From NCBI RefSeq assembly GCF_032062105.1, contig NW_026934971.1, positions 434,001 to 498,000 on the forward strand: 64,000 nucleotides of DNA. The letters run 5' to 3'. The DNA is from Saccostrea cucullata. Its lineage: Eukaryota. The first letter of the stretch is position 1, and every line of letters starts with the position of its first letter. The translations under genes and the position numbers were made by a program. The notes below the pieces were generated by a model that worked only from the letters and a program-made list of their open reading frames with translations, was not told where the DNA came from and did no database searches. This document shows, piece by piece, positions 44,264-48,900 of the stretch.

Positions 44264-46434
44264 TCAAAACTCATCTTTTCTATATTTCCTTCTGTCCATC
44301 CATTCCTGATCTTCTTCCTTCCGTCTATCTTTCACATTCTGTCTCATCCTCCGGGTCTGAATTTTGGACAAAATTTCATATGCTTTCTGTATCTCCATGA
44401 ACTTTTCTTGAGCCTCGGCTTTTTTATTCGGGTCTCTCTGTTTGTCTGGATGCCATTCCTTCACTAGAACTTTATACCTAACTTTGATTTCTTTCTCTGT
44501 GGCTGTGTCAGTGAGATTTAATACCTAAAAATAATATTTAAAAAACACAAATTGCTCATAAACATGATATCTATCTTTATCAAGGGGATAAAAACTTAAT
44601 CTATCTCTTACAAGAAAAACATTCTCCTTTAGTTTATTCAAATGGAATTTCAATTTCTACTATCATTTCCATACACTTATTTTTAGGGAGATTAACAATG
44701 TAAACATTTACATATATTGATAATTAAAAAATAATTCTATTGGTGCTATTTAAAGCTTGGACATGAAATAAAACATTTCATAACTTTAAACTTACTTTGT
44801 AGGCATTAGTTTCTCCAGTAGGGTCTAATTTCTCCACAAATTCCTCCCAAAGCTTCTCAAAACCATGAACCTGATAAAATTTATACAGCTCTTTCAATGA
44901 TTCCTTCATTTCTGCCCAGGCTGGAGAATTAAAAAAGTTGGGGATCGCCTCTCTCAGGGGCACTTCCTCCCCATCCTTGGTTGTAATAGAAGCGGTTTGA
45001 TAAATAACAACTCCCCATAAGGTGGAATAAAGCAGGCAACAGAAAAACAAACTAAAAAAACGTTTACAGAATGGACGGCTGTTTCCCACAACTGGGTTCC
45101 ATTGTTTTCCTTTCCAGTTCACAAATACTGCAGACAGAATGGCAGAGTACACTAAATTTCCTGTGTCATATAATATCCAGGGGACCCCACAAAGGGCCCC
45201 AATAAGAGGCCATTGAAATGAAGCTTTTGTTGGCTGAACATTTGCAACCACATGGACACCTGCAGAAAAAAAATACATTGAAAAGTTACAATTAGCATTA
45301 CAGATACACTTACTCTATGTAAAAAAGACCAACAGATTATACAAGTTATTGAAATAGGAAGGGGAAAATACAGCAGAACAGAGGCTCCCTGAGCTAAAGA
45401 CAAAGGTACTACATGTACATGTATTATCATGATAATCTGAGCTATCTGGCCACTAATATGTGAACCTTTCTGGCAGGCACATTGCTCATTTCTTAACCAT
45501 CTTCAATTTATAATAGGAAGAAAAAGCAGCAGGTTTGAAGCTCAGCCCATGCTAATGGCTCAGTGAAATATTTGGCCACCGGCAAACAAATCTATTGGAG
45601 CACCCAAGGGCAAAGAGAGGTAAAATTAATTCCAATCTGGGATATTATAACTTAAACAATCTATTTTTAATACTTCCTACTTGCATTGAGTGACTGGTCC
45701 CAACCTAGGGGCAAAATTGTCAAATGGTCCCATAGCACATTGTAATTGAGAGCAAATGTACCATACCTAACCCAAACAAATCTGACACACAAGCCTATCC
45801 CTGGAAGGATATTTTTCCCAGTCAGATTTACATATCTGACACACTCTGGTCTATTATTCTTTTTTTCATATACATTCTGAACAAAAATTTAGATACAAAA
45901 AATCATATAGACTATCATTCATATACACGTATAGCTGTAATCAGGTTATAGTAGAGATACACATCATACAACTGTACACATGGTACATAGCTGTCATTAA
46001 TTTTAATAATCAGTGAGTATTACTAAAAGAAGAAAAGAAAATATGATACCTAAAGCAATCGCACAAGGAGGCACAATTATACAGAATAGCCAGCCTATTC
46101 CTTCATAAGCATTTTCTTCTGGGACACACAACCTTGTCAGGAGCCCAAAAGTCAATCCCAGAATAATTTCTCCAATGAATCGTACAACATTAAACGTGGG
46201 ACACGGGTAATACGTTCTTTTTTGTTCGAACTCATTCAAATATCCCACATCTCTGTTGGCTGCAAATATATACTCCGGAATACGCCACAAGTCTCGGAAC
46301 CATCCGAGCCCAAAACACCCGCCAAATGTGGCCCACCAGATAAACGCTTGTCTGTCCCTCCCGAGATAAAAGTGATGCAAACCCCACCATCCACCGACTA
46401 ACCAGAAAATGTAGGCAATCATTATATGTGCCAT
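44264..46434 (-). CDS. DNAJC22: DnaJ homolog subfamily C member 22 (TM2 domain, multi-TM, C-terminal J domain; wurst ortholog-like), 369 aa
   Basis: Exons 46434-46050, 45259-44796 and 44524-44264 (1110 nt). N-terminal TM2 motif AYIFWLVGGWWGLHHFYLGRD, FFNSPAW motif, and J domain NAYKVLNL...WHPDK...AQEKFMEIQKAYEILS. Confidence 0.93.
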
Positions 46435-46852
46435 AGTAGCGATCTAAAGCCACAGAATGATGAAAATCGTCGTAGTCTAAACAGAGGAAAGCTGTCGTGT
46501 ACAGTGTGTACTTTCCGTTTCGCTTTTATCATTGGGGGATTTCCCTTCCAGCATGTGCGATCATGAACACGCCTGAGGATATACGAATGTCGATAGCTAA
46601 AGATATCTTCATGCTACGTGTCATTCACCGATCCCGTTTTAAATTTTTGATTTTTCTTTTATTTAATTGTGCTTCTTTGATTAAAAGTAAATAAATATTT
46701 TTAAATATTTTAATATAGAAAAAAGCTCTATAATTGATGCTTGTATAGCTTAACAATAATGAACGCGGAGATATTAATAACTGATGCTTGTTTTTGTTTA
46801 CCGTATCGAGGGGCATTACAAGATGGCCGCCGCGCACATGTAAAATGTAAAC
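46435..46852. promoter_or_regulatory. Bidirectional promoter region (418 bp between divergent start codons) with YY1-like motif
   Basis: Divergent ATGs at 46434 (-) and 46853 (+). CAAGATGGCCGC at 46819-46830. CpG-richer than the flanks. Confidence 0.65.
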
Positions 46853-48900
46853 ATGGACAGAAAACCTGGACATTTGACTAAGAATGCCCAAGATGCTGTG
46901 AATTCTTTGATGTGGATAAAGGTGAAATTTTTGTGATTCCCTTATCCTAGTACTTACGTTATATGAATAGACTTTTGAACTTTATATACGAAGAGATAAG
47001 GTTTTTGAGAAACTTAACAGTCAAGGAAACTAATACTGGGCTACATTTTGGGAAGTTCTTGCGATTACCATTGTTTTATTTAGCACATATACCTACCTTT
47101 AGAAGCAATCTATAGAAGGATAAAAAGAACTTTACTTATCGGATATATAAGACTCATATCATCTTCTATAATGGTTATTTGTCATAAGATATATTTGTTG
47201 TACAAGTAAATAGTTGGTATATTATAGATATTTTTAAAAATATATATAGAATGAATACTTCACTCGCAAAACTACGAAGGGAGTTATCGGGTTAAATCAG
47301 GAATCTTTATAGAAAAAGATCTATATGTATGCTAATGAAGAAGACAAATCTAACTGTATTTTACATGTGTATATTGGTTTAATCCGTAATTTTCTTGACG
47401 AACTTGATCACAGGTTGTGGGAATTGGCAATGGATGTGTTGGGAAAACCTGTCTGATCAAACACTTCTGTGAAAGCAAAGTAAGAAACGCGATGATTATT
47501 TTAAAACGTTTAATTATGATCTTTAAATACACAGAAAATCTGAAAGATTCTATTTGCTTATAAAAGCAAAACCTACAGGATAAATATAGGTTGATATTGA
47601 TTAAACTTCAATAAAAAAAAACGACAGTGTATAACTATCAATTTATCTTCAGTTTAGTGGAGGATATCAGCCCACCGTTGGTGTAGATTATGGTTTCAAG
47701 ATTCAGCATGTGGAGGGAATTGATTGTAAGTATACGGTGAAAAAATAAGACCGAATGGTCCATATCATTCAGTCTTTCTTATCCATTTTGTTTTTATGTC
47801 AGATCATGTTTTTCATGAGTAAGGTAGCTAACAGGCGAAGAAAAATGAAATTATCGAAATAGAGAATCGTTATTTTACAGTCGTACAAATACAAATCAAA
47901 AGGTTATAGCTGTTTCTGGTTTAATTCTGACAGAGGTTGAGTAAACTTTATGTAGAACATCTCCAATGTGCAGTTAACAGATATAAATAATACTTGTTTT
48001 ACAATGAGTAATTGCTTTACCTTGAAATACATTTCTTAATAGTAACTGAGTAATTGTTTTATCTTAAAATAAATTTCTTACTATATGAAAATAATCAATG
48101 CCAAATTTACAAAAGTGAGAGTGCATCTCTGGGACCTATCTGGAAGCCCAGAATACATCGATGTCAGAAATGAACTTTACATCAACACCGACGCCATTTT
48201 CCTGGTTTTTGACGTCACCAACTTGTCTACATTTGAGAACATGGAGAATTGGTTAAAGGAAGTCCAGAAATATTCATCTGGCAATCCAGATCTTATTGTG
48301 GTCGCCAACAAGGTATATTGTCCCATTAAATGACTTAAATTTATACGGAATTCATTGTTTATATACATGTAGATGAACCTGTAAAACATGTACTACATGT
48401 ATATTACAAGTTTCATCTACTTTAAATTGCATAATTGTGGAATATTTTTGAAATTACATGCTGATCTTCATGGATAAATGCAGGCACCTGAAAATGTATT
48501 TAAATAATTACAAGTATCATGTATACATGTACATAGAAAATATATGTTTGTTTCCTCACAGATTGACCTTAAAGCCAAGAGAGTAGTAAAATCAGAGGAC
48601 TCGAAAAAATGGGCACAGCAAAACAACGCAAAGTAAGGATCTTAATTTCTTTATACCAATATATATATACTTCTTTTAAAACCCTTTACCGACCCCAAAG
48701 ACAGACAACAAACAAAAGAATACATTGAGATATGCATAAAAATGTATTGTTTATTAAATTATCTCTTCTCTTTTTATAGGTATTACGAAACATCGGCAGC
48801 AACCGGGGAGGGTGTAGACAGATTGTTCCACGACATCCTGACTGGACTGATTGAACGAAAGAAACTATGGAAGGTCAAATCAGCCAATCCCAGCATTTGA
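46853..48900 (+). CDS. RJL-family small GTPase (DNAJC27/Rbj-like GTPase domain, no J domain), 198 aa
   Basis: Exons 46853-46921, 47414-47479, 47653-47725, 48116-48312, 48562-48632 and 48780-48900 (597 nt). G1 GNGCVGKT, G2 PTVGVDYG, G3 WDLSG-S (catalytic Gln absent), VRNELY, G4 ANKID, G5 YETSAATGEG, and no C-terminal Cys prenylation motif. These features match RJL rather than canonical Rab. Confidence 0.85.

What the first reader, a model, noticed from the sequence alone, without database searches (positions are those of the whole stretch)
44264..48900. J-domain-less RJL GTPase head-to-head with a membrane J-protein: a possible split Rbj-like module
Seen: DNAJC22 (-) and an RJL-type GTPase (+) start only 418 bp apart, and the GTPase has no J domain and no prenylation cysteine. 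Established: metazoan DNAJC27/Rbj is an RJL GTPase fused to a J domain, and Drosophila wurst (DNAJC22) recruits Hsc70 and clathrin. Inference: co-regulation from a shared promoter could supply in trans both the J domain and the membrane anchor that this GTPase lacks. The adjacency may also be coincidental.
Basis: partly seen in the sequence, partly recalled or inferred. Interest (0 to 1): 0.7.

Follow-up and report, generated by a model that had tools for sequence, protein, structure and literature searches.

The report
Ancient J-less RJL GTPase, conserved neighbour
This oyster gene encodes a complete small GTPase of an animal-wide, J-domain-free branch of the cilia-linked RJL family; it sits head-to-head with a membrane J-protein gene here, in two clam-like animals and likely in an annelid, probably because the two share a promoter, and it is unlikely to be a split copy of the Rbj gene, which the oyster keeps intact elsewhere.

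Summary
Observation confirmed. A 369-aa TM2+J-domain gene (DNAJC22 type, - strand) and a 198-aa RJL GTPase (+ strand; no J domain, no C-terminal Cys) start 418 bp apart; RNA contigs of a relative show all seven introns spliced. The 'split Rbj' reading fails. The same genome has an intact GTPase+J Rbj/DNAJC27 on another contig. The window GTPase belongs to a separate J-less clade (100/100) running from ctenophores and Trichoplax to tunicates, with an N-terminal motif shared with chytrid Rjl. The neighbour's J domain is unlike Rbj's (14-18 of about 60 identical, against 30-50 among Rbj). The linkage is not a local accident, though. Of 5 informative metagenome contigs, 3 (two clam-like, one probably annelid) keep DNAJC22 head-to-head at 400-469 bp. 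The other 2 (bryozoan-like) have TTC5 in the same place at about 430 bp. Best reading: an ancestral-type, probably GTP-locked, cilia-associated RJL paralogue held beside a housekeeping gene by a compact bidirectional promoter. A working partnership in trans is not excluded (about 0.1).

The parts
46853..48900 (+). J-less RJL-family small GTPase, 198 aa; coding exons 46853-46921, 47414-47479, 47653-47725, 48116-48312, 48562-48632, 48780-48900
   Evidence: spliced joints; identical to P0352; tree; model pLDDT 87.9
46853..46876 (+). N-terminal MDRxxGHL motif, conserved across the animal clade and shared with chytrid/blastoclad Rjl
   Evidence: G 60/78, H 56/78, L 67/78; P0108 Obelidium, P0223 Batrachochytrium, P0264 Sorochytrium
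44264..46434 (-). DNAJC22/Wurst-type membrane J-protein, 369 aa; coding exons 46434-46050, 45259-44796, 44524-44264; N-terminal TM2 domain, further hydrophobic segments, C-terminal J domain with HPD; one copy found in the genome
46435..46852 (.). 418-bp spacer holding both 5' UTRs; likely a bidirectional promoter. RNA contigs reach 46490 on one side and 46666 or 46719 on the other
   Evidence: promoter function is inferred
46793..46800 (+). TTTGTTTA 8-mer (forkhead-type site, label recalled), the only 8-mer shared by all four DNAJC22-linked spacers; 60-66 nt before the GTPase ATG in the three bivalve-type loci, 264 nt in L032; absent from the two TTC5-linked spacers
   Evidence: 2 of 1000 dinucleotide shuffles give a shared 8-mer; L025 and L030 are related, so not four independent cases

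Best explanation
The window holds a complete 198-aa J-less RJL GTPase from an animal-wide paralogous clade, which likely works on its own as a GTP-bound, cilia-associated switch and is likely kept head-to-head with the unrelated membrane J-protein DNAJC22 by a shared compact promoter rather than by being half of a split Rbj. History (inferred): RJL duplicated before or at the origin of Holozoa. One copy gained a C-terminal J domain (Rbj; choanoflagellates, an ichthyosporean, animals). The other kept the J-less form and the N-terminal motif seen in chytrid Rjl; it persists in ciliated marine invertebrates and was not seen among vertebrate or ecdysozoan hits. Biochemistry (inferred by analogy with the xRbj structure): switch II reads DLSGS where Rabs have DTAGQ, the switch I Tyr is kept, and there is no prenylation site, so hydrolysis is probably slow and membrane contact, if any, goes through partners. 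Gene order: the gene starts about 400-470 bp from a divergently transcribed gene in all 6 loci where this could be read. The partner is DNAJC22 in 4 and TTC5 in 2, so the architecture is more constant than the partner.
For: Intact Rbj (268 aa, 7 exons, HPD, Pfam DnaJ) at G000:C3824:12685-23428. Eleven named non-oyster species appear in both the J-less lists and, with PF00226, in the Rbj list (against 36). Tree of 47 rows: RJL vs Rab 100/99, J-less animal clade 100/100, metazoan Rbj 100/98 apart from it. The AU test rejects J-less + metazoan Rbj as one clade, weakly (p=0.038), and does not reject J-less + fungi (p=0.45). 0 of 120 and 0 of 52 listed homologues carry PF00226. Window GTPase and own Rbj are 59/167 identical and share 1 of 5 intron positions, while all five intron positions recur in L025, L029 and L033. 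J domains: DNAJC22 vs Rbj 14-18 identical, Rbj vs Rbj 30-50. TTC5 replaces DNAJC22 in L029 and L033 at 433 and 427 bp. Conserved 5'-5' pairs of unrelated genes are the commonest kind of ancient microsynteny, 68.6% of such pairs in Lottia (PMC3514665, section 7 read). Ciliary role of the family: passages in PMC9250359, PMC13393502 and PMC4736243.
Against: The pair has outlasted the split between pteriomorph and heterodont bivalves and probably the mollusc-annelid split, and conserved 5'-5' pairs are enriched for co-expression and include true partners such as HSPE1-HSPD1. RJL domains are fused to J domains in two different arrangements (C-terminal in Holozoa; N-terminal in a ciliate and others), so a J-protein neighbour is a suspicious coincidence. 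The bryozoan branch is long (0.69) and may simply have lost an ancestral functional link. The tree does not resolve which RJL lineage is sister to the J-less clade. No ciliary or biochemical evidence exists for this paralogue itself, and PMC4736243 notes that human RBJ was also reported as nuclear. Only 5 informative contigs, none from a deuterostome or cnidarian.
Confidence: 0.7

Rival explanations
1. Working partnership in trans: the co-regulated DNAJC22 anchors the J-less GTPase at a membrane and lends it a J domain to recruit Hsc70, a third solution beside the two RJL-J fusions.
For: Linkage at 400-469 bp in the window and 3 of 5 informative contigs; two RJL-J fusion arrangements; a shared spacer 8-mer; intact HPD in the window and L032.
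Against: Partner swapped for TTC5 in 2 of 5 contigs. DNAJC22 is single-copy across vertebrates and flies (PMC5481429 passages), where no member of this clade was among the hits. J-less Rjl in fungi and algae needs no such fusion. In xRbj the G and J domains are independent and joined by a flexible hinge, so there is no ancestral interface to keep (PMC6776491, whole text).
Confidence: 0.11
2. Neutral inertia: the genes have independent promoters and have not been separated because a 400-bp spacer is a small target for breakpoints.
For: The shared 8-mer lies close to the GTPase start in bivalves and may serve that gene alone. The spacers are otherwise unalike by k-mer content. The partner changed in the bryozoan-like loci.
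Against: The spacing is held at 400-470 bp in 6 of 6 loci, even after the partner changed, which suggests an inherently bidirectional promoter.
Confidence: 0.17
3. Literal fission: an Rbj copy split, and its J domain ended up on the neighbouring gene.
For: Only the domain inventory (GTPase + J) of the two neighbours.
Against: Opposite strands, with the J domain at the far 3' end of a TM2 protein; J domain unlike Rbj's; clade outside metazoan Rbj; partner absent in the bryozoan-like loci.
Confidence: 0.02

Closest known systems
Rjl subfamily of RJL GTPases (J-less; Nepomuceno-Silva 2004, Elias and Archibald 2009; neither paper could be read, features taken from passages of PMC1550239 and PMC6776491)
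   Same: GTPase domain only, catalytic Gln replaced, no prenylation motif, 34-45% identity to protist and fungal members, N-terminal motif shared with chytrids.
   Different: Forms its own animal clade on a long stem (0.46), with RNELY for RNEFY, GKT for GKS and DYGF for DYGV; it coexists with Rbj in the same genomes.
Rbj/DNAJC27 (PDB 6JMG)
   Same: Best PDB sequence match (1e-38 against 3e-32 for the best Rab); switch I Tyr kept; non-Gln switch II.
   Different: No J domain; 35% identity to the oyster's own Rbj; 4 of 5 intron positions differ; a paralogue, not the orthologue, despite database names 'DNAJC27-like' or 'Rab-13-like'.
DNAJC22/Wurst
   Same: TM2 domain, hydrophobic segments and C-terminal J domain with HPD; single copy.
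   Different: No match to a recalled clathrin-box pattern. Hsc70 and clathrin recruitment is recalled; only a table entry 'clathrin-mediated endocytosis' was seen (PMC5597180 passage).
Conserved ancient microsyntenic 5'-5' pairs (Irimia et al. 2012, PMC3514665)
   Same: Unrelated genes, divergent orientation, spacer under 1 kb, kept across distant lineages.
   Different: Whether this pair is in their list is unknown (supplements not readable); shown here only within lophotrochozoans, with a partner swap in bryozoan-like loci.

Membership tests
RJL GTPases | Groups with RJL, apart from Rabs | tested here: met
   100/99 against 9 Rab domains (only 72 in the quick tree with long outgroups); 203.6 bits on a profile built without this clade, best canonical Rab domain 157.6
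RJL GTPases | Canonical Gln of the G3 motif replaced and DTAGQE altered | tested here: met
   DLSGSP in the window; at that column S 28, H 13, N 10, D 9, Q 6 among the five commonest of 78
RJL GTPases | No prenylation motif | tested here: met
   no Cys in the last five residues in 78 of 78
RJL GTPases | About 37-40% identity to other Rjl proteins | tested here: met
   34-42% to the 24 protist, fungal and unnamed non-animal-clade rows of A2
RJL GTPases | Little GTPase activity; ciliary function | not testable with these tools
   inferred from xRbj (PMC6776491) and from family-level statements
Rbj/DNAJC27 | C-terminal J domain fused to the GTPase | tested here: not met
   stop at 48900 after 198 aa; spliced RNA contigs run into a 3' UTR
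Rbj/DNAJC27 | Orthology to DNAJC27 | tested here: not met
   true orthologue on C3824 groups with Rbj; the window protein does not
Split gene (fission of Rbj) | Both halves descend from the fused gene | tested here: not met
   J-domain identities; trees
Split gene (fission of Rbj) | Products associate in trans | not testable with these tools
   needs co-IP or proximity labelling
DNAJC22/Wurst | TM2 domain, membrane segments, C-terminal J domain with HPD | tested here: met
   the architecture-to-name link is recalled
DNAJC22/Wurst | Orthology to named DNAJC22 proteins | not tested
Conserved bidirectional gene pair | 5'-5' orientation, under 1 kb, kept in distant lineages | tested here: met
   window 418, L025 400, L030 403, L032 469 bp; not kept in L029, L033
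Conserved bidirectional gene pair | Correlated expression from a shared element | tested here: inconclusive
   both genes are spliced in 4 of 4 runs; contig depths cannot rank expression

The most novel reading that the evidence does not exclude
Animals kept two RJL GTPases: Rbj with a built-in J domain, and an overlooked ancestral-type J-less paralogue that in molluscs and annelids borrows its J domain and membrane anchor from the co-regulated neighbour DNAJC22, coupling a GTP-locked ciliary switch to Hsc70-driven membrane traffic at the cilium base. This would be a third, non-covalent RJL-J coupling beside the two known fusions, and would give Wurst/DNAJC22 an ancestral ciliary role.
Probability: 0.1. 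Interest if true: 0.7.

Novelty: new member of a known kind. Interest (0 to 1): 0.36.

Why it matters
Even on the ordinary reading, many 'DNAJC27-like' and 'Rab-13-like' database entries in invertebrates are a distinct J-less RJL paralogue, conserved from ctenophores to tunicates and apparently missing from vertebrates and ecdysozoans. That gives a natural comparison (RJL with and without a J domain in one animal) for the open question of what RJL does at cilia and why it twice fused to J domains. The conserved DNAJC22 linkage names a concrete candidate partner that single-cell atlases can test cheaply. Whether the paralogue is already described is open: Elias and Archibald 2009 could not be read. 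None of the passages read from the four RJL-directed searches describes it; one search added no RJL paper that was read.

Tried and rejected
Complex prediction: GTPase as partner against three exon-encoded pieces of DNAJC22. Verdict 'no answer', score 0.00 in both runs, alignments not used, controls not folded, job unlike the calibration; no evidence either way. Contig depths of the two genes differ between runs but the tool states they cannot rank genes, so they were not used. No RNA joint links a GTPase exon to the J exon in the 4 runs laid; contigs show presence only. The careful 89-row tree did not finish, so its quick version and two smaller careful trees were used; for, 42 of the 81 RJL rows were dropped and the outgroup replaced. 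Two-profile sorting of all fetched proteins was swamped by ordinary Rabs and discarded. Foldseek cannot tell RJL from Rab: 6JMG ranks third, with the highest identity of the listed rows, 37%. ESM Atlas gave only generic Rab-like clusters. Scans of prokaryote genomes and viral contigs gave no clade member. TTC5 lies on another contig (C8245) in this genome. An RFX half-site pattern in the spacers is at chance level (p 0.2-0.3). Synteny by accession number in named species could not be done, for want of named DNAJC22 proteins. Earlier-findings look-ups returned nothing. Papers not held: Elias and Archibald 2009, Piette 2021, Wingen 2009; the Irimia supplements, which may list this pair, were unreadable.

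Full report
1. Observation. The minus strand carries a three-exon gene (46434-46050, 45259-44796, 44524-44264) for a 369-aa protein with a TM2 domain, further hydrophobic segments and a C-terminal J domain with HPD. The plus strand carries a six-exon gene (46853-48900) for a 198-aa small GTPase with no J domain and no terminal cysteine. The ATGs are 418 bp apart. The GTPase model is identical to P0352, a RefSeq protein of Saccostrea rock oysters. I laid 4 of 18 listed RNA runs (contigs of a relative, mostly 90-99% alike; one run is RNA on record, three are guessed to be RNA). They join six introns in 4 of 4 runs and the seventh in 3 of 4. The name DNAJC22 is assigned from the recalled architecture; one such gene was found in the genome.

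2. What the GTPase is. Its best PDB match is Xenopus Rbj (1e-38; best Rab 3e-32). A profile built from 38 RJL proteins outside its clade scores it 203.6 bits, against 157.6 for the best canonical Rab domain. In a 47-row maximum-likelihood tree RJL is set off from Rabs at 100/99, and the window protein lies in a 100/100 clade of J-less animal proteins. Named members come from molluscs, annelids, nemerteans, a brachiopod, bryozoans, a flatworm, echinoderms, hemichordates, amphioxus, tunicates, cnidarians, Trichoplax and ctenophores. None of the 120 listed hits (of 304), and none of the 52, carries a DnaJ domain. No named vertebrate or ecdysozoan appears before the list passes on to algal and fungal Rjl; the search is word-based, so this absence is suggestive only. 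The clade's N-terminal MDRxxGHL motif recurs, exactly or nearly, in Rjl of two chytrids and a blastoclad. The model is a plain small-GTPase fold (pLDDT 87.9).

3. Is it half of a split Rbj? The genome has a separate intact Rbj at G000:C3824:12685-23428: seven exons, 268 aa, HPD and Pfam DnaJ present. Eleven named non-oyster species hold both forms: Pinctada, Mytilus coruscus, Dreissena, Mya, Argopecten, Mactra, Solemya, Lingula, Gigantopelta, Ptychodera flava and Holothuria (against 36). Rbj with a C-terminal J domain is also in two choanoflagellates and Chromosphaera (clade support 84/93), so that fusion predates animals. Forcing the J-less clade together with metazoan Rbj is weakly rejected (p-AU 0.038); forcing it with fungal Rjl is not rejected (0.45), which does not prove that grouping. 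The two oyster paralogues are 59/167 identical and share one of five intron positions. The neighbour's J domain matches Rbj J domains at 14-18 of about 60 positions, while Rbj J domains match each other at 30-50. Literal fission is therefore very unlikely, and 'no J, no prenyl' is the family's normal state (PMC1550239, passages).

4. Is the adjacency chance? A scan of metagenome contigs gave 10 loci from 72 pattern matches. Two are ordinary Rab-like genes and three lack the first exon (L027, L031, and L034, which repeats L033), leaving 5 informative loci. In three of them a DNAJC22 orthologue lies head-to-head: L025 (400 bp), L030 (403 bp) and L032 (469 bp). L025 groups with heterodont clams (100/99) and L030 scores best against them. 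L032 groups with the annelid Paralvinella (96/88), but a place among bivalves is not rejected (p-AU 0.34), so 'annelid' is probable, not shown. In the other two, L029 and L033, which group with bryozoans (100/100), the divergent neighbour at 433 and 427 bp is TTC5. The compact head-to-head layout thus holds in 6 of 6 loci including the window, and the J-protein partner in 4 of 6. One 8-mer, TTTGTTTA (forkhead-like, label recalled), is shared by the four DNAJC22-linked spacers (2 of 1000 shuffles; two loci are related). It lies 60-66 nt before the GTPase ATG in the bivalve-type loci.

5. How it most likely works. Shown: gene structures, splicing, family placement, paralogy, conserved linkage with one partner swap. 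Inferred: slow hydrolysis and a GTP-bound state, because the catalytic Gln is replaced and the switch I Tyr kept, as in xRbj (PMC6776491, whole text). Also inferred: a ciliary role, from family-level statements (passages of PMC9250359, PMC13393502, PMC4736243, the last noting a conflicting nuclear role for human RBJ) and from retention in ciliated marine animals. Also inferred: a bidirectional promoter as the reason for the linkage, the commonest form of ancient microsynteny (PMC3514665, section 7 and passages). I put this at 0.7, neutral inertia at 0.17, a working partnership in trans at 0.11 and literal fission at 0.02. For the partnership: conserved pairs are enriched for co-expression, and RJL domains occur fused to J domains in two arrangements. 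Against it: the TTC5 swap, the persistence of DNAJC22 in vertebrates and flies (PMC5481429, passages) where this paralogue was not seen, and the lack of a G-J interface in xRbj.

6. Novelty and score. Both proteins are members of known families, and conserved head-to-head pairs are a known kind. The useful results are the separation of a mis-annotated, animal-wide J-less RJL paralogue from DNAJC27 and its conserved link to DNAJC22. The papers most likely to have described the paralogue could not be read, so its novelty is uncertain. Other papers were seen only as search listings. Interest 0.36.

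Noticed in passing
window 51722-55605 (+): Next gene downstream: large exons with an N-terminal SH3 domain, hydrophobic segments and a DC-STAMP domain. An SH3 + DC-STAMP combination looks unusual; the middle exon has short tandem repeats (HSSQTNRT-like).
   Followed up: no
L029:1675-2967 (-), L033:573-1880 (-): In bryozoan-like contigs TTC5 is a single long open frame, head-to-head with the J-less RJL gene; in this oyster genome TTC5 matches in several pieces on contig C8245.
   Followed up: partly
window 32892-36404 (-) and 31823-32581 (-): A 1170-aa low-complexity open frame and a 252-aa one beside it, with no Pfam match; possibly a secreted or shell-matrix-type protein (guess).
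   Followed up: no
window 23949-30075 (+): Multi-exon immunoglobulin-domain membrane protein.
   Followed up: no
window 2051-3115 (+): Myb/SANT-like DNA-binding domain in a 354-aa open frame.
   Followed up: no
window 46535-46545 and L032 spacer: An NF-kB-type site (recalled pattern) occurs in the window and L032 spacers but not in L025 or L030; probably chance.
   Followed up: partly
P0359, P0049, P0006, P0132: Database models fuse the J-less GTPase to a CYTH domain (Branchiostoma belcheri), an RRM protein (Dimorphilus), an unassigned tail (Mytilus coruscus) or a DAN domain; probably merged neighbouring genes, none a J domain.
   Followed up: partly
P0221, P0195, P0210, P0238, P0259: RJL GTPases with an N-terminal J domain (one named from the ciliate Blepharisma), a second fusion arrangement; recalled as described by Elias and Archibald 2009.
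   Followed up: partly
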